Below are positions 27,159 to 49,990 of a stretch of DNA of 64,000 nucleotides, piece by piece; position 1 is the first letter of the stretch; each line of letters starts with the position of its first letter. This stretch comes from Hadesarchaea archaeon (GTDB lineage: Archaea > Hadarchaeota > Hadarchaeia > Hadarchaeales > WYZ-LMO6). The notes beneath the pieces were generated by a model that was given only the letters and a program-made list of their open reading frames with translations, had not been told where the DNA came from and searched no databases. The stretch spans positions 1 through 64,000 of the forward strand of contig JAPDJF010000001.1 in NCBI GenBank assembly GCA_029259185.1, in the 5' to 3' direction. The position numbers were made by a program, and so were the translations under genes.

Positions 27159-28263
27159 ACAGTTATGTAAAGTAACAGAACTTCAAAGTTGTAAAGTATT
27201 TATATTTCAATAGGAAACGAGAGATAGGGCGATGAGACAGCTGTTTGTCAGAAGGCTCACCAAGCGGGAGAGGGACTTCGTTTACAGACTCATCGAGGAC
27301 AAGCGGTACAGAGCGCGGGGGCTCGTGATCGCGCTGAGCTACGAGGGCTATCCTGTAGACATGATTGCTAGAAAGGTCAATATGCACCCGGTCAACGTGA
27401 GGAAGTGGATACGGAGGTTCAACCGATCCGGTGTCGAGGGCATTGCTCCCCAGAAGGTCGGGAGGAAGCCGAAGCTGGACAAGCGGACGGAGGATCGGAT
27501 CGTCGCGATCGCGCTGATCGACCCGGAAGCGCTGGGGCTCCGATTCTCGACTTGGAGCCTGCGCAAGCTGAGCGCCTATCTGAGATCAAGGGGGATAGCC
27601 GACCTGAGCCACACCCAGCTCAGAACCATCCTGACGAGCAGGGGGTTGAGGTTCAGGCGGAGCAGGGCCAAGCTCATTTCCCGAGACCCCGAGTACGAGG
27701 CCAAAAAGCGCAGAATTCAGCGCCTGCTGAGACACCCCAACTGCAGGGTCATGTTCGAGGACGAGAAGCGTCTGGTGGCCAAGGAGTACGGCGGGTGAAG
27801 CTGGTGTAGGAAGGCAAAAGTGGTGGAGCTGAACCAGCGGACGCGGGGGAAGGAGATTCTCTTCGTCGCCTACGACCCGCACCGGCATCGGATCGTGAGG
27901 CGGTACACACCGAACATGCACGCGCGGTGCTTTGTCGAGTTCCTGAAGCTCCTGTCGCGCACGACCGACGAGGACATCTATCTGATCTTGGACAACCATC
28001 CATCTCATCGCTCGAGGGAGGCCGGGGAGGTGTTCGCGAAGGGCAAGATAAAGCCCGTGTGGTTGCCGAAACATGCGCCCGAGCTGAACGATGTGGACAA
28101 GATCATCTTCTCTCTTCTTCAGCGGGAGGTCATTCAGAACCGGAAGTTCAGGTCGCTCGATGAGATGGAGCGATGCATCGACCGATGGATAAGAGGGTTC
28201 AACTCCTCACACAGAATAAATCCAAGTTTACAAAATTGAAGCACAATTATTTTACAATACTCT
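27159..28263 (+). mobile_element. IS630-family element, 1105 bp, TA duplication
   Basis: TA at 27157-58 and 28264-65; imperfect 17-bp TIR ACAGTTATGTAAAGTAA / AGAGTATTGTAAAATAA. Confidence 0.9.
27232..28239 (+). CDS. IS630 transposase with a single in-frame TGA at 27796-27798
   Basis: HTH domains, FEDE, LILDNHPSH, WLPKHAPELN; the two ORFs are in the same frame. Confidence 0.8.
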
Positions 28264-37880: not shown

Positions 37881-38432
37881 ATGGGGGGGCGGAAAGGGAT
37901 CAAGAGAGTTTTCATCCCACTTGTGAAGAACGATTTTATCTATGAGGTACTTTCCTTCTTTCTTTGCATCGGTATCTTGTACTTTTCCCATCAGGGAATC
38001 CTGATGTTGGCCCTGGACTGCGATACCCCCCTCATGCCTGTCATCTCGAATAGCATGCAACACCACAGCGAGAGCTGGAAAGTACCATACGAGCAGATGG
38101 GTTATGACCCCTCCCAGTTTCCGTTTCAGGGGGGATTCGAGAGGGGCGATCTTCTTGTGATAAAGGGTGTAGATTCACCTAGTGAGATATCGGTCGGAGA
38201 TGTGGTGGTATACCAGCGAGTGCCGGGTACGATACCGGTGGTGCATAGGGTGCTATCGAAGTCAGAAGACGGACAGATCATCGTCCTGAAAGGGGATGCG
38301 AATTCGAGTCCGGATCCGAGCATATCTTTCGAGATGGTTAGGGGAAAGGTGATATTGGCAATCCCTAACCTCGGTTGGTTCTCTATATCAGTTTGGAAGT
38401 ACAGATGGCTTTGCACAAAAATTAGCCCCTGA
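37881..38432 (+). CDS. Signal peptidase I (Sec11-type); native stop replaced by element insertion
   Basis: VISNSM, GDLL, VVHRV, KGDAN..D, GKV; the reconstructed empty site ends WKYR-TGA. Confidence 0.88.
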   Translation: MGGRKGIKRVFIPLVKNDFIYEVLSFFLCIGILYFSHQGILMLALDCDTPLMPVISNSMQHHSESWKVPYEQMGYDPSQFPFQGGFERGDLLVIKGVDSPSEISVGDVVVYQRVPGTIPVVHRVLSKSEDGQIIVLKGDANSSPDPSISFEMVRGKVILAIPNLGWFSISVWKYRWLCTKISP

Positions 38433-39561
38433 GGCCAATTTCCGTGCTTGGGGGCTCGGAGTCCCCCTCAAGGGCCGAAAGCCCTACGGCCCCGTCCCTG
38501 AGCCAGTGGCCCAGGAACCTCTCTCCAATGTTTATGGCTCCGTTGAGGTCGGCGTTGTACTCGAGGCCACACGAGGGACATTTGAAGAAGCCTTGAGAGA
38601 CCCTTCGTCCTTCGTTTCCGCAGCGGTGGCACGTTCGGCTGGTGTACGCCTCGCCGGCGTGCACCACGGGGATCCCCTCCCAGAGAGCCTTGTACTCGAT
38701 GTACCTTGACAGCCGGTGGTGGGGCATCGAGTGCACGATGCGCCTGAACCTCCGCCCCTTTGCCCGCTTGCGGATTCCCTTCAGATCTCCTATCACGATA
38801 ACCGAGTTCCGCTCCTTAGCTTCGCTGACGATAGCCCTTGAGATCTTGTGGCACAGGTCGTCTATTCGCCGGCGCTCCGTTCTGCCTATCCGCTTGATCA
38901 CCCGCAGTAGCTTGCGCTCGCCGAGTCGCTTTCGGAGCCAAGCGTAGTGGCGCCTTATCCCCCTTGCTTCCTTCCCGTAGAGCTTGGGGGAGGTGATGTT
39001 GGCCTCCTTCTGCAGCGCCACAGACGCCGCGAGAAAGCGCTCCCCCAAGTCCACTGCGAGGACGCCGGAGGGACGCATCGGCTTGACCCTACGCTTGACC
39101 GTGAGGTGGAGGAAGAACCTCCCGTTGCGGTGGACGAGCTGTGAGTCGGAGATCTCAACCCTACCCGAGGAGAGAAGCTCCTCGTGGGAGCGCCACATCC
39201 GCAGCGGGCACCAGATGCGCCCGCCGGGGGTTGAAACGGATACGAAAAACCTGGCGAACCTGTTTCCGGTGTCGGTGAGCTTGAATGAGTCCTTATCGAT
39301 GAGGATGGGAGCCTTCCGCCTGTCCCCGGCCTTCCAAGCTAAAGCACGGCAGTAGTAGGAGGGCAACCTCGTTTGCTCTCTCAGAGTCCGGTAGTCCCTC
39401 TCAAGGGCCTGGGCGCGATCCCACTCGGCTTGGAGGTCCTCCAGAAGCTTGCGCTTGAACCGGGTGAGGCCGTAGAGTTCAGCCCTTATCGTCTTGGAGA
39501 CCAACATCGAACGTGGTCTGTCGGAACCATTTTAAGTTTTCCGGTATTTTTGTGCAAAGCG
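38407..39561 (-). mobile_element. TIR-bounded, transposase-less tnpB element (1155 bp)
   Basis: TIR GCTTTGCACAAAAAT at 38408-38422 and 39546-39560; direct repeat AGTACAGAT at 38398-38406 and 39562-39570. Confidence 0.9.
38422..39507 (-). CDS. tnpB: TnpB-family RNA-guided nuclease
   Basis: RuvC-I VLAVDLG, IVIGDL, EAYTSRTCHRC..CPSC zinc finger, RuvC-III NADLNGA. Confidence 0.93.
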   Translation of the reverse strand: MLVSKTIRAELYGLTRFKRKLLEDLQAEWDRAQALERDYRTLREQTRLPSYYCRALAWKAGDRRKAPILIDKDSFKLTDTGNRFARFFVSVSTPGGRIWCPLRMWRSHEELLSSGRVEISDSQLVHRNGRFFLHLTVKRRVKPMRPSGVLAVDLGERFLAASVALQKEANITSPKLYGKEARGIRRHYAWLRKRLGERKLLRVIKRIGRTERRRIDDLCHKISRAIVSEAKERNSVIVIGDLKGIRKRAKGRRFRRIVHSMPHHRLSRYIEYKALWEGIPVVHAGEAYTSRTCHRCGNEGRRVSQGFFKCPSCGLEYNADLNGAINIGERFLGHWLRDGAVGLSALEGDSEPPSTEIGLRG

Positions 39562-39619
39562 AGTACAGATGAAAGATTTATTGGTACCCAAGTGAGTAGA
39601 TTTAGCTTGGAGGCAGGCG

Positions 39620-39940
39620 ATGAGGTTCTGCAAGAAATGTGGTGGTCTGATGGTTCCCAAGAAGAGTGGGGGAAAGAACGTATTGCTTTGTGAGATGTGT
39701 GGAGAGACGGAGGAGGCCGATAGCTCCGGCTACACGTTGGTTCGAAAAGTTGAGGAAAAAGCGGAAGTGGTGGTGATTGAGAATGAGCCTTCTACCTTGC
39801 CGACCACACGCGCCAAGTGTACTAAATGTGGGAATGACAAAGCGTATTGGTGGATGAGACAGACGAGGAGTGCGGACGAGCCCTCTACTCGATTCTACAG
39901 GTGTACCAAGTGCGGGAATACATGGAGGGAATACGCATAG
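39620..39940 (+). CDS. tfs: Transcription elongation factor S
   Basis: Two zinc ribbons, QTRSADEP. Confidence 0.95.
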   Translation: MRFCKKCGGLMVPKKSGGKNVLLCEMCGETEEADSSGYTLVRKVEEKAEVVVIENEPSTLPTTRAKCTKCGNDKAYWWMRQTRSADEPSTRFYRCTKCGNTWREYA

Positions 39941-49338: not shown

Positions 49339-49387
49339 AGCTTCACATAGTCTTCCACTCGTTCAAAATAAGTCTTTCAGAGACCTC

Positions 49388-49976
49388 TGCTTTGCACAAA
49401 AATACCGGAAAACTTAAAATGGTTCCGACAGACCACGTTCGATGTTGGCCTCCAAGACGATAAGAGCTGAACTCTACGGCCTCACCCGGTTCAAGCGCAA
49501 GCTTCTGGAGGACCTCCAAGCCGAGTGGGATCGCGCCCAAGCCCCTTGAGAGGCCGGACTCTGAGAGAGCAAACGAGGCTGCCCTCCTACTACTGCCGTG
49601 CTTTAGCCTGGAAGGCTGGCGATGGGCGGAAGGCTCCCATCCTCATCGATAAGGACTCATTCAAGCTCACCGACACCGGAAACAGTTCGCCAGGTTTTTC
49701 GTATCCGTTTCAACCCCCGGCGGGTGTACGCCGGCGAGGCATACACCAGCAAATGTGCCACTGGAAACGAAGGACGAAGGGTCTCTCAAGGCTTCTTCAA
49801 ATGCTCGTCGTGTGGGCTGGAGTACAACGCCGACCTCAACGGAGCCATAAATATTGGAGAGGGGTTCCTGGGCCACTGGCTCAGGGACGAAGGCGTGGGG
49901 CTTTCGGCCCTTAGGGGATCCCGAGCCCCCAAGCACGGAAATTGGCCTCAGGGGCTAATTTTTTTTGTGCAGAGCC
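49388..49976 (+). mobile_element. Internally deleted copy of the TIR-bounded tnpB element (589 bp)
   Basis: Near-identical ends to 38407-39561; direct repeat AGAGACCTC at 49379-49387 and 49977-49985; tnpB frameshifted and deleted. Confidence 0.9.
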
Positions 49977-49990
49977 AGAGACCTCTCAGG

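What the first reader, a model, noticed from the sequence alone, without database searches (positions are those of the whole stretch)
38398..39570. TnpB carried by a TIR-bounded, TSD-generating element with no transposase (two copies)
Seen: tnpB fills almost all of a 1155-bp unit bounded by a perfect 15-bp inverted repeat GCTTTGCACAAAAAT and flanked by the direct repeat AGTACAGAT (9 bp, extendable to 11 with one mismatch). A second, deleted copy at 49388-49976 has the same ends but a different flanking repeat (AGAGACCTC), so these are independent insertions. The reconstructed empty site restores the signal peptidase stop (WKYR-TGA). Known: canonical prokaryotic tnpB carriers (IS200/IS605 Y1, IS607 serine recombinase) have no TIRs and make no TSDs, while GGCTTTG-type ends with 9-bp TSDs are typical of IS903-group IS5 DDE elements. 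Inference: an RNA-guided nuclease captured by a non-autonomous DDE cut-and-paste element mobilised in trans, a prokaryotic parallel to Fanzor1 riding TIR transposons.
Basis: partly seen in the sequence, partly recalled or inferred. Interest (0 to 1): 0.9.

Follow-up and report, generated by a model that had tools for sequence, protein, structure and literature searches.

The report
TnpB riding a DDE-type transposon
A small archaeal jumping gene with inverted ends and 9-bp target duplications carries an RNA-guided nuclease (TnpB) in place of a transposase, so these nucleases can hitch-hike on DDE-type transposons in prokaryotes, a kind of partnership already reported for a few other families.

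Summary
Window 38407-39561 is a 1,155-bp element with a 15-bp perfect inverted repeat (16 bp with a mismatched end base). It is flanked by a 9-bp duplication and filled by an intact tnpB. A deleted copy lies at 49388-49976 with a different duplication. The 1.27-Mb archaeal genome holds three full-length copies and many 145-640-bp derivatives. All five family relatives show the empty site.

The TnpB has a rearranged RuvC-II site: Gly at the canonical Glu, and a conserved Glu seven residues before the zinc finger.

No matching transposase is in this genome. Related genomes of the phylum hold DDE_Tnp_1 (IS5-like) transposons with GGCTTTGC-type ends and a 9-bp duplication. One such end is 20 of 22 identical to this element's right end.

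Altae-Tran et al. 2023 already report DDE-associated TnpBs with inverted ends, and solo TnpBs mobilised in trans.

New here:
- TTT sits directly 5' of the duplication, on the tnpB-start side only, in 14 of 17 left ends. The right-flank guide would therefore match the empty site next to a T-rich TAM-like motif.
- A sister TnpB sits between IS6-like ends.

The parts
38391..38406 (-). Flank just beyond the right end. It would be the guide part of a read-through omegaRNA (ATCTGTACTTCCAAAC on the - strand). Its first 9 nt are the TSD copy.
   Evidence: Read from the sequence. The guide role is inferred, by analogy with TnpB systems as described in PMC13565253.
38398..38406 (.). Target-site duplication, copy beside the right end (AGTACAGAT).
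   Evidence: It is present only once in the orthologous empty sites of 5 of 5 family relatives.
38407..38422 (-). Right-end terminal inverted repeat, GGCTTTGCACAAAAAT read from outside inwards. The tnpB stop codon (38422-38424) overlaps its inner base.
   Evidence: It is 20 of 22 identical to the end next to a DDE_Tnp_1 gene in G019.
38407..38505 (-). The most conserved roughly 95-100 nt of the element, kept in all 18 right ends aligned, including every miniature derivative. It holds the transposon end plus a candidate omegaRNA scaffold 3' part, ending in a hairpin and a 6-nt tail (AAAGCC).
   Evidence: The RNA role is not shown.
38422..39507 (-). tnpB, 361 aa and intact. Key residues: D153, G240 at the canonical RuvC-II Glu, E286 as alternative Glu, CxxC..CxxC zinc finger at 293-313, NADLN with D320.
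39546..39561 (-). Left-end terminal inverted repeat, CGCTTTGCACAAAAAT read from outside inwards. The outermost base is C or T in 15 of the 17 left ends listed (C 12, T 3).
39562..39570 (.). Target-site duplication, copy beside the left end (AGTACAGAT).
39571..39574 (-). TTTC on the element's sense strand, directly 5' of the TSD on the left-end side. Candidate TAM.
   Evidence: The TAM role is inferred.
49375..49378 (+). TTTC directly 5' of the TSD of copy 2.
49379..49387 (.). TSD of copy 2, left copy (AGAGACCTC).
49388..49976 (+). Copy 2: an internally deleted, non-coding derivative (element positions 1-341 joined to 896-1153).
49977..49985 (.). TSD of copy 2, right copy (AGAGACCTC).

Best explanation
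The element is a non-autonomous member of a DDE_Tnp_1 (IS5-like) transposon family with GGCTTTGC-type inverted ends and 9-bp target duplications. The transposase gene has been replaced by tnpB and the region that would encode its omegaRNA.

Shown:
- Inverted ends, variable 9-bp duplications, an empty site in relatives, and many copies and miniature derivatives in the genome.
- An intact TnpB with a rearranged but complete catalytic set.
- Autonomous transposons with the same kind of ends and duplication in other genomes of the phylum, and no such transposase in this genome.

Inferred:
- The element is, or was, moved in trans by such a transposase.
- TnpB is transcribed with an RNA that runs across the right end into the flank. 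Its guide would then be the 9-bp duplication plus the next bases.
- TTTB sits directly 5' of the duplication on the left-end side. The uninserted allele therefore reads TTTB followed by the guide match and would be cut. The occupied allele matches only 9 nt and would be spared.
- TnpB would thus convert empty alleles (other chromosome copies or sister chromosomes) to occupied ones. That would favour insertions lying next to a TAM in the right orientation.
For: Architecture
- The genome search gave 49 matches, three of them full-length.
- Only the window copy has an open tnpB; the C15, C4 and C34 copies carry stops.
- The empty site is seen in 5 of 5 family relatives.

TnpB
- D153, G240, E286 and D320 are invariant in 13 of 13 aligned sequences.
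- In the profile alignment to Cas12f, G240 aligns with the catalytic Glu of 'MEDL' and E286 aligns with the Pro of 'DPQYTS'.
- This is the pattern Altae-Tran 2023 describe for RIIr-5.

Partner family
- G056:C25:3449-6262 is 2,814 bp, has identical GGCTTTGCTCATAAA ends and the TSD GATTTTCAT, and encodes a 414-aa DDE_Tnp_1. NCBIfam was run only on the G019 and G058 transposases; their best hit is IS5.
- The G019 end is 20 of 22 identical to this right end.
- 8 of 80 metagenome loci fetched with the 16-mer hold inverted pairs of the same end. 4 have clear and 2 have approximate 9-11-nt flanking repeats.

Target asymmetry
- TTT lies 5' of the TSD at 14 of 17 independent left ends, 12 in register and 2 shifted by one.
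- Of the 3 exceptions, one is explained by a later nested insertion and one by an 8-bp tandem duplication.
- The mirror motif occurs at 1 of 16 right ends.
- The genome-wide rate is 0.020 per position.
- 4 of 29 ends of the same end-family in five related genomes have TTT in that register. Fisher p = 6e-6.
Against: - No RNA data exist, so the omegaRNA, its 3' end and the guide are unproven.
- No cognate transposase is in this MAG. It is 94.9% complete, and repeats are collapsed at contig ends, so mobilisation in trans is not shown and may be historical. Copies are 88-93% alike.
- The 4 control ends that do have TTT also follow TATA-like boxes, as do the left-end flanks here (A/T-rich at -22..-17). 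Part of the bias may therefore be a preference of the transposase for promoter regions, or selection for expression, rather than a TAM.
- The control pattern required GG at the end, so ends like this element's left end (Y instead of G) were not sampled.
- The terminal hairpin of the right end is also present in the G019 transposon end. It may be a DNA feature of the transposon end rather than an RNA feature.
- In the sister element of G029 the TTT overlaps the TSD by one base.
- 6 of 16 elements have no recognisable TSD. Three miniatures share a 22-nt left flank, which the model does not explain.
Confidence: 0.7

Rival explanations
1. The one-sided TTT (and the A/T-rich box upstream) has nothing to do with TnpB. 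It reflects the target preference of the DDE transposase for promoter regions just downstream of TATA boxes, or selection for copies that capture a host promoter to express tnpB. The architecture is as in the best explanation, but TnpB's TAM is unrelated.
For: - Left-end flanks are A/T-rich at -22..-17. For example, A occurs in 12 of 17 at -19.
- 4 of 29 control ends without any TnpB show the same TATA-like box plus TTTB.
- A second, unrelated TnpB family with other ends (GGTTCTGTTGCG...) also sits behind T-runs.
Against: - A symmetric DDE transpososome does not by itself explain why the tnpB-start end is on the TTT side in 14 of 17 ends while the mirror motif occurs at 1 of 16 right ends.
- The rate in controls is 14%, against 71-82% here.
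- The one autonomous element with a clear TSD (G056) has no TTT on either side. Nor does the IS6-like IS in this genome.
Confidence: 0.3
2. The element is moved by the IS6-like transposase that is intact in this genome (G000:C4:8346-9533), not by an IS5-like enzyme.
For: - That IS makes a 9-bp TSD, GATCGTAGC.
- Its ends (GGTTCTCTTCGGAAC) are the ends of the tnpB-only element of G029, whose TnpB is 63% identical to this one.
- The right end here fits the GGnnnTG signature noted for IS6/IS26 ends (PMC6807381).
- Archaeal IS6-type ISs are recorded with 8- or 9-bp TSDs.
Against: - Beyond GG..T.. the two ends are unrelated (GGCTTTGCACAAAAAT against GGTTCTCTTCGGAAC).
- A far better match exists to ends of DDE_Tnp_1 transposons (20 of 22).
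Confidence: 0.08
3. It is an ordinary IS200/IS605 (IS1341-group) element moved by a Y1 TnpA. The inverted repeat and flanking repeats are incidental.
For: - The genome holds Y1_Tnp genes or fragments (4 matches) and a collapsed canonical hairpin-ended TnpB family.
- Relatives at about 47% identity include a Y1-TnpB fusion (P0098).
- The right end has a subterminal hairpin.
Against: - Seven elements have perfect 9-bp repeats of seven different sequences.
- The empty site holds the 9-mer once.
- Homologues at 40-45% identity lack such inverted ends.
- Miniature derivatives keep both inverted ends.
Confidence: 0.02
4. TnpB itself (an RNase-H-fold RuvC nuclease), alone or with host factors, carries out the transposition of these inverted-repeat elements.
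For: - No cognate transposase is in the genome.
- Three different TnpB-only families with inverted ends co-occur in the phylum.
- A second family has 100% identical 127-nt ends at several contig ends, which implies recent copies.
Against: - Autonomous DDE transposons with the same ends and TSD exist in relatives.
- MAG binning drops repeat contigs.
- No precedent is known to me (recalled).
Confidence: 0.03

Closest known systems
DDE-transposase-associated TnpBs (branches DDE-1 to DDE-6) and solo TnpBs with the same ends, Altae-Tran et al. 2023 PNAS (PMC10691335; passages and section 9 read)
   Same: - TnpB lies between inverted terminal repeats of a DDE-type transposon.
- The tnpB 3' end is within 250 bp of the transposon end; here the stop codon overlaps the repeat.
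- It is a solo TnpB presumed to be moved in trans.
   Different: - A review (PMC13565253) names the DDE partners as ISL2, IS630 and IS1031.
- Here the frame is a GGCTTTGC-end family with a 9-bp TSD, in an archaeon.
- The TSD is long and variable, so a TAM cannot lie within it.
- I could not see the supplements, so I cannot say whether this family is among the six branches.
ISAba12 group and MITEAba12 (PMC6382973, Table 2 read). The assignment to the IS5 family, IS903 group, is recalled and comes from no call.
   Same: - 16-bp ends beginning GGCTTTG...CACAAA.
- 9-bp TSDs.
- Miniature non-autonomous derivatives moved in trans.
   Different: - Those are bacterial, with a TTG insert in the repeat (GGCTTTGTTGCACAAA against GGCTTTGCACAAAAAT) and no cargo.
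- The phylum's own transposases (343-414 aa) score below NCBIfam's IS5 cut-off.
IS1341-group (tnpB-only) IS200/IS605 elements
   Same: It carries only tnpB. The protein family is the same.
   Different: IS200/IS605 elements have no inverted ends and make no TSDs (PMC13565253; PMC3119063). This element has both.
Fanzor1 in eukaryotic TIR transposons (PMC13565253 passages)
   Same: - A TnpB-type nuclease is cargo of DDE transposons that make TSDs.
- The catalytic Glu sits just upstream of the zinc finger.
   Different: In Fanzors the short fixed TSD (TA, TTAA) is read as part of the TAM, and the 3' TSD lies in the scaffold. Here the TSD is 9 variable bases that would be the start of the guide, and the T-rich motif lies outside it.
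Archaeal IS6-type insertion sequences (PMC6807381, passages and Table 5)
   Same: - Ends begin GG with G at position 7.
- TSDs are 8-9 bp.
- An intact one in this genome shares its ends with the sister TnpB element of G029.
   Different: The ends of the window's element match DDE_Tnp_1 transposon ends much better.

Membership tests
TnpB (RNA-guided nuclease, OMEGA) | Sequence membership in the curated family models | tested here: met
   PF07282: 82.3 bits against a cut-off of 26.3. NF040570: 170.2 bits against 100. PF01385 is below its cut-off (28.8 against 30.5).
TnpB (RNA-guided nuclease, OMEGA) | RuvC catalytic triad and zinc finger | tested here: met
   D153, E286 (alternative position; canonical Glu is G240) and D320 are invariant in 13 of 13 sequences, as are C293, C296, C310 and C313. 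The register was checked against Cas12f and TnpB structures by sequence profile. No structure was predicted here.
TnpB (RNA-guided nuclease, OMEGA) | omegaRNA from the tnpB 3' end across the right end, with a flank-derived guide; TAM 5' of the left end | tested here: inconclusive
   - No Rfam match and no RNA run.
- The right end is conserved in 18 of 18 copies.
- The terminal hairpin is kept in G029, with changes on both sides in 5 of its pairs in a 5-sequence alignment. The same hairpin type occurs in a transposon end without TnpB.
- TTTB is found at 14 of 17 left ends.
RuvC-II-rearranged TnpB (RIIr-5 type of Altae-Tran 2023) | Canonical RuvC-II Glu replaced by Gly with a compensating Glu; NADxN in RuvC-III | tested here: met
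   IVIGDL with G240, GEAYTSRTC with E286, and NADLN. Placement in that tree branch was not tested.
IS200/IS605 family (IS1341 group) | No terminal inverted repeats, no TSD, subterminal hairpins at both ends, insertion 3' of a fixed 4-5-mer | tested here: not met
   A 15/16-bp inverted repeat and variable 9-bp TSDs. A hairpin is found only at the right end.
IS5-like DDE_Tnp_1 transposons with GGCTTTGC ends (non-autonomous member) | Ends shared with autonomous members | tested here: met
   20 of 22 identical to the G019:C4:134261 end. The first 8-9 nt are shared with both ends of G056:C25:3449-6262.
IS5-like DDE_Tnp_1 transposons with GGCTTTGC ends (non-autonomous member) | TSD length equal to that of autonomous members | tested here: met
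   9 bp here (7 perfect cases). 9 bp in G056. 9 bp for the ISAba12 group.
IS5-like DDE_Tnp_1 transposons with GGCTTTGC ends (non-autonomous member) | A cognate transposase in the same cell | tested here: not met
   - PF01609 in the own genome gives only C51 (IS1182-like, 1,358-bp contig without ends; about 62% G+C by my estimate from the sequence printed, not computed) and a decayed copy on C15.
- tblastn with the G056 and G019 transposases found none.
- The MAG is 94.9% complete, with collapsed repeats.
IS6 / IS26-type | Ends GGTTCTGTTGCAAA-like (G1, G2, G7), 8-bp TSD, DDE_Tnp_IS240 transposase | tested here: inconclusive
   G1, G2 and G7 fit at the right end. The TSD is 9, not 8, although 9 is recorded for ISH15 and ISPfu5. 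The genome's IS6-like IS has other ends.
MITE (for copy 2 and the 145-640-bp derivatives) | Short, non-coding, both inverted ends kept, TSDs | tested here: met

The most novel reading that the evidence does not exclude
TAM recognition by TnpB is coupled to the fate of a DDE transposon that has no fixed target. One route is that TnpB helps choose the site and orientation at insertion. The other is that TnpB acts as an intracellular gene drive: only insertions that land directly 3' of TTTB in the right orientation produce a guide (TSD plus flank) that cuts the still-empty chromosome copies, so only those insertions become fixed. The variable 9-bp TSD then serves as the seed of the guide. This would be a natural solution to the problem of pairing an OMEGA nuclease with a transposase that has no target specificity. 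The same TnpB lineage has been plugged into at least two unrelated DDE frames (IS5-like and IS6-like).
Probability: 0.25. Interest if true: 0.85.

Novelty: new variant of a known kind. Interest (0 to 1): 0.6.

Why it matters
TnpB is thought to persist because its TAM has co-evolved with the fixed target site of Y1 or serine transposases. Reviews attribute the rarity of DDE partners in prokaryotes to this constraint (PMC13565253).

This element is a clean natural test case:
- The frame is a DDE-type transposon with a long, variable TSD.
- The copies nevertheless sit next to a T-rich motif on one side only, in the geometry a TnpB would need.

If the motif is the TAM, it shows how an RNA-guided nuclease can serve a transposon with no target specificity. 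It would also provide an archaeal, 361-aa, RuvC-II-rearranged nuclease with a simple TTTB-type TAM to test.

The finding that sister TnpBs sit in IS5-like and IS6-like frames supports the idea that the TnpB-omegaRNA module is portable between transposons. That is the route proposed for Fanzors.

Tried and rejected
- **Rfam** on 38200-39800 at E up to 1 gave no family.
- **Sequencing runs:** no RNA holder was listed. Laying four DNA runs (contigs) showed contigs of 8,493 and 9,887 or 9,863 nt ending about 29 nt inside the two ends in X1-X3. No contig was reported that joins across the element, i.e. no empty allele. This is no evidence of absence.
- **Covariation among the genome's own right ends** was uninformative because the copies are too alike.
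- **The search for related loci in genome contigs** returned 4 loci, the best at 44% identity, none with inverted ends examined further.
Most are chance matches. None of the 80 encodes a TnpB relative, an IS6-like transposase or anything like the element's interior.
- **Exact 15-mer matches in five other genomes of the phylum** were first read as possible transcription-factor sites, because the 9 neighbouring ORFs tested hold no transposase. I now read them as ends, or solo ends with subterminal repeats, of the same transposon family. This is not proven.
- **IS5-like genes of G058 and G019:** I could not find the second end. Only G056 gave a complete element.
- **Other DDE families in the own genome:**
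  - PF12762: 0 matches.
  - PF03400: 0 matches.
  - PF00872 and PF00665: only weak hits, both on the IS6-like gene.
  - PF13358: one pseudogene in the window.
- the script mis-registered the C6 left end by 6 nt, and the correct register is. The script was cut short and did nothing.
- **Literature searches** for a prior description of TnpB in IS5/IS903-like or IS6-like frames, or of the TTT-TSD geometry, were. None was found in the held library. Supplements of PMC10691335 (lists and ends of DDE-1 to DDE-6) are closed and may hold such a case.
Full report
**What is there**

The window holds a 1,155-bp unit at 38407-39561.
- Its core GCTTTGCACAAAAAT (38408-38422) is repeated, inverted and perfect, at 39546-39560.
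- One more base on each side makes a 16-bp repeat whose outermost base is mismatched. Read from outside inwards, the end next to the tnpB stop is GGCTTTGC and the end next to the tnpB start is CGCTTTGC.
- The 9-mer AGTACAGAT flanks both sides at 38398-38406 and 39562-39570.

The only long ORF is 38422-39507 on the minus strand. It is 361 aa, and its stop codon overlaps the inner base of the repeat.

A second copy at 49388-49976 has the same ends, a 555-bp internal deletion (element positions 1-341 joined to 896-1153) and the flanking 9-mer AGAGACCTC.

The 15-mer with up to two mismatches occurs 4 times in the window against 0.05 expected. None of 100 shuffles reached 4.

**Copies and duplications**

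The window lies in a 1.27-Mb, 54-contig, 94.9%-complete genome with archaeal-type genes. These include an archaeal signal peptidase I (TIGR02228) and a TFIIS-type TFS.

A DNA search of the genome with the element gave 49 matches. Three are full-length (100, 91 and 90% identity). The rest are partial copies and miniature derivatives of 145-640 bp that keep both ends.

Only the window copy has an open tnpB. The C15, C4 and C34 copies carry stop codons.

Of 16 elements with both ends, the flanking 9-mers agree as follows:

| Agreement | Elements |
|---|---|
| 9/9 (seven different sequences) | 7 |
| 8/9 | 1 |
| 5-6/9 | 2 |
| 4/9 or fewer | 6 |

The right flank always begins with C, or T once, so that base belongs to the element.

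**Empty site**

The insertion sits on the stop codon of the signal peptidase gene. In all 5 genomes of the same family the orthologous gene ends ...W(R/T)(Y/H/Q)G* or similar. It is followed by a short spacer and the TFS gene, with no insertion, and the 9-mer region is present once. The duplication is therefore a true target-site duplication, and the element's limits are the inverted repeats. This removes the Y1-hairpin alternative.

**The protein**

It is a TnpB: PF07282 at 82.3 bits and NF040570 at 170 bits. It has 613 relatives at E up to 1e-40 in the large protein collection, the best at 75% identity, with archaeal names where any name is given.

In an alignment with its 12 best relatives the following are invariant: D153, G240, E286, the four zinc-finger cysteines, and D320 within NADLN. 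In the profile alignment to solved Cas12f structures, G240 falls on the catalytic Glu of 'MEDL' and E286 on the Pro of 'DPQYTSQRC'.

This is the RuvC-II rearrangement, Glu to Gly with a compensating Glu just before the zinc finger. Altae-Tran et al. 2023 describe it for their RIIr-5 clade, and a 2026 review notes it for Fanzors. I did not place the protein on their tree.

**Who moves it**

Nothing in the element can. In the own genome:
- PF01609 finds only a 1,358-bp contig without ends that encodes an IS1182-like protein (about 62% G+C by my estimate, not computed; the genome is 52%), plus a decayed copy on C15.
- Y1_Tnp gives 4 matches, which belong to canonical elements.
- PF12762 and PF03400 give none.

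Across the phylum (66 species genomes), 36 hold DDE_Tnp_1 genes. Several of these lie next to GGCTTTGC-type ends.
- **G056:C25:3449-6262** is complete at 2,814 bp. It has GGCTTTGCTCATAAA at both ends with subterminal TCTGCTCATAAAGT repeats and the 9-bp duplication GATTTTCAT. It encodes a 414-aa DDE_Tnp_1 protein and a 269-aa ORF.
- **The G019:C4:134261 end** reads GGCTTTGCACAAGAATTAACCC. That is 20 of 22 identical to this element's right end, and it lies about 20 nt 3' of a 343-aa DDE_Tnp_1 gene.
- The G019 and G058 proteins hit NCBIfam's IS5 model best, at E = 1e-36 and 6e-34, below the curated cut-off.
- tblastn with the G056 and G019 transposases finds nothing in this genome.

Further support comes from outside the phylum.
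- Of the 80 metagenome loci fetched with the 16-mer, 8 hold an inverted pair of the same end 105-982 bp apart. 4 have clear and 2 have approximate 9-11-nt flanking repeats in the same geometry. The end type is therefore widespread.
- In print, the ISAba12 group has GGCTTTGTTGCACAAA ends and 9-bp duplications and moves MITEAba12 in trans (PMC6382973, Table 2). Their IS5/IS903 assignment is from my memory.

The partner is absent from this MAG, and mobilisation may be past rather than present, since copies are 88-93% alike.

**Other frames for TnpB in the same lineage**

- **IS6-like frame.** The only close relative among the 65 genomes of the order is G029:C6, at 63% amino-acid identity. It is a 1,177-bp tnpB-only element with a 23-nt inverted repeat GGTTCTCTTCGGAAC... 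and the 9-bp duplication TAACTAGCC. Those ends are the ends of an intact IS6-like IS in the window's own genome, at C4:8346-9533. That IS encodes a 293-aa protein (PF13610 at 46.5 bits; NF033587 best hit) and has the 9-bp duplication GATCGTAGC.
- **A third frame.** GGTTCTGTTGCGTAATCGGGAG has its first 11 nt equal to the published IS6/IS26 consensus. It bounds a second, collapsed TnpB family with a canonical DRD motif and 8-bp duplications. One deleted copy holds a PF07282 hit between such ends.
- Homologues at 40-45% identity show no such inverted ends.

**A one-sided target motif**

All copies were oriented from the tnpB-start end (left) to the tnpB-stop end (right). The left flank then reads TTT-B-(9-bp duplication)-Y-GCTTTGCAC.
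- Among 17 independent left ends (three miniatures with one shared flank counted once), TTT is in register in 12 and shifted by one base in 2.
- Of the 3 exceptions, the C23 end regains TTTT once a later nested insertion of the second family is removed.
- The C3 end carries an 8-bp tandem duplication between a TTTT and the end.
- The third exception is unexplained.
- The fourth base is C, T or G, and A only once.

For comparison:
- The mirror motif after the right-hand duplication occurs in 1 of 16.
- The genome-wide rate of TTT is 0.020 per position.
- 4 of 29 ends of the same end-family in five related genomes have TTT in this register. Fisher p = 6e-6 for 14/17 against 4/29.
- The complete G056 element and the IS6-like IS have no TTT on either side.

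If an omegaRNA runs out of the right end, as in other TnpB systems, its guide starts with the duplication. For the window copy the guide would be ATCTGTACTTCCAAAC. The uninserted allele reads TTTC followed by exactly that, while the occupied allele matches for 9 nt only. This is the geometry a TnpB needs to cut empty alleles and spare occupied ones.

- The left flanks are also A/T-rich at -22..-17, like TATA boxes.
- The four control ends with TTT have the same look.
- Preference for promoter regions, or selection for expression, may therefore contribute.
- The control pattern also demanded GG at the end, so it did not sample ends like this left end.

**Right-end structure**

The last 95-100 nt are the best conserved part and are kept in 18 of 18 right ends aligned. 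They fold into three hairpins. The last hairpin (GCACGGAAAUUGGCC / GGGGCUAAUUUUUGUGC) is followed by AAAGCC and the flank. For the 253-nt stretch folded, z = -2.0.

In a five-sequence alignment with G029, 9 of 32 predicted pairs keep pairing through changes on both sides. The terminal hairpin plus a 6-nt tail is kept although the sequence differs. However, the G019 transposon end has an inverted subterminal copy too, so this hairpin may be a DNA feature of the end. There is no Rfam match and no RNA run.

**Novelty**

The architecture is in print. Altae-Tran et al. [quoted passage not shown] They also found solo TnpBs with the ends of transposase-bearing relatives, 'mobilized in trans'. A 2026 review lists ISL2, IS630 and IS1031 partners.

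I found no description of the following in six literature searches:
- a GGCTTTGC-end, 9-bp-TSD frame;
- an IS6-like frame;
- the TTT-TSD-guide geometry;
- an archaeal case.

The supplements that list the DDE branches were closed. I therefore rate this a new variant of a known kind.

**Limits**

- This is one MAG with collapsed repeats.
- There is no RNA or biochemical evidence.
- Related copies are not independent events in every case.
- Three miniatures share a 22-nt left flank without a duplication, and 6 of 16 elements lack a recognisable duplication. Recombination between copies may explain some of these cases: the right flank of the C20 copy resembles the left 9-mer of that trio.

Noticed in passing
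G000:C4:8346-9533 (L229:1202-2389): An intact IS6-like insertion sequence of 1,188 bp. It encodes a 293-aa DDE_Tnp_IS240 protein, has inverted ends GGTTCTCTTCGGAAC..., and has the 9-bp duplication GATCGTAGC. Decayed relatives lie at C2:79370-79992 and C10:43039-43257. 9 of 66 genomes of the phylum hold relatives.
   Followed up: yes
L031:1296-2472 (G029:C6): A tnpB-only element of 1,177 bp whose TnpB is 63% identical to the window's. Its inverted ends are those of the IS6-like IS above, and its duplication is TAACTAGCC. No IS6-like transposase was found in G029 at E up to 1e-10.
   Followed up: yes
G000 contig ends C7:48125-48251, C22:1-127, C28:1-127 (left ends); C7:1-127, C16:37349-37475, C23:20805-20931 (right ends); C12:36578-36890; C8:41470-41997: A second TnpB family (DRD motif) bounded by a 22-nt inverted repeat, GGTTCTGTTGCGTAATCGGGAG, with 8-bp duplications (TACCAAGC, GTGGTAAA) behind T-runs. 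Its interior is collapsed or missing from the assembly (k = 127 overlaps). One copy is inserted between the T-run and the left end of a copy of the window's family at C23:20793.
   Followed up: partly
G000:C13:31877-32182, C14:36950-37255, C23:8665-8810: Three miniature copies share the same 22-nt left flank (AAAACTTTTCGAACCTTTAC) but have different right flanks and no duplication. That flank occurs nowhere else in the genome. The right flank of the C20:3953-4143 copy (GAACCTTAG) resembles the shared 9-mer. This is unexplained.
   Followed up: partly
G000:C26:6505-6560; also L221:146-210, L222:11975-12013, L226:2448-2483: Arrays of GGCTTTGCAC(A/T)AAA followed by one or two direct repeats of TGCACA.AAAT at about 20-nt spacing, next to ordinary genes. 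In G000 the array lies about 150 nt upstream of a 548-aa ORF that looks like a thermosome (named by eye, not tested). They are probably ends or solo ends of the same transposon family with subterminal binding sites. A role as regulatory sites is not excluded.
   Followed up: partly
window 27232-28239: An IS630-type DDE_3 transposase gene (PF13358, 76.8 bits) interrupted by one TGA. It is unrelated to the finding.
   Followed up: no
G000:C51 (1,358 bp): A contig that is one IS1182-like transposase ORF with no ends and no overlap to other contigs. Its G+C is about 62% by my estimate from the sequence printed (not computed), against 52% for the genome. It may be a binning contaminant.
   Followed up: no
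G000 contig ends C1_R, C4_R, C5_L, C20_L, C26_L, C31_R, C35_L, C43_L (one end); C15_R, C19_R, C20_R, C31_L, C32_R, C53_L (other end): A high-copy canonical (hairpin-ended, no inverted repeat) TnpB element, collapsed in the assembly. 8 and 6 contig ends share its two termini.
   Followed up: no
G000:C3:5770-5798: An 8-bp tandem duplication (CCGGGTGA twice) lies between a TTTT run and the left end of a deleted copy. It looks like the footprint of another insertion.
   Followed up: no
L127:4023-4160, L125:2403-2553, L078:934-1038, L131:3612-3795 (metagenome contigs): Miniature elements of 105-184 bp in unrelated metagenome contigs (G+C 48-58%). They have the same 15-16-nt ends as the window's element and 9-11-nt flanking repeats.
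   Followed up: partly
G000:C32:2000-2878: A left end of the window's type (TTTG + 9 nt + C + GCTTTACACAAAAAT) is followed by different interior sequence and, about 650 nt in, a weak PF07282 match (C32:2130-2231, 25.1 bits, just below the cut-off). It may be another TnpB type in the same frame.
   Followed up: no
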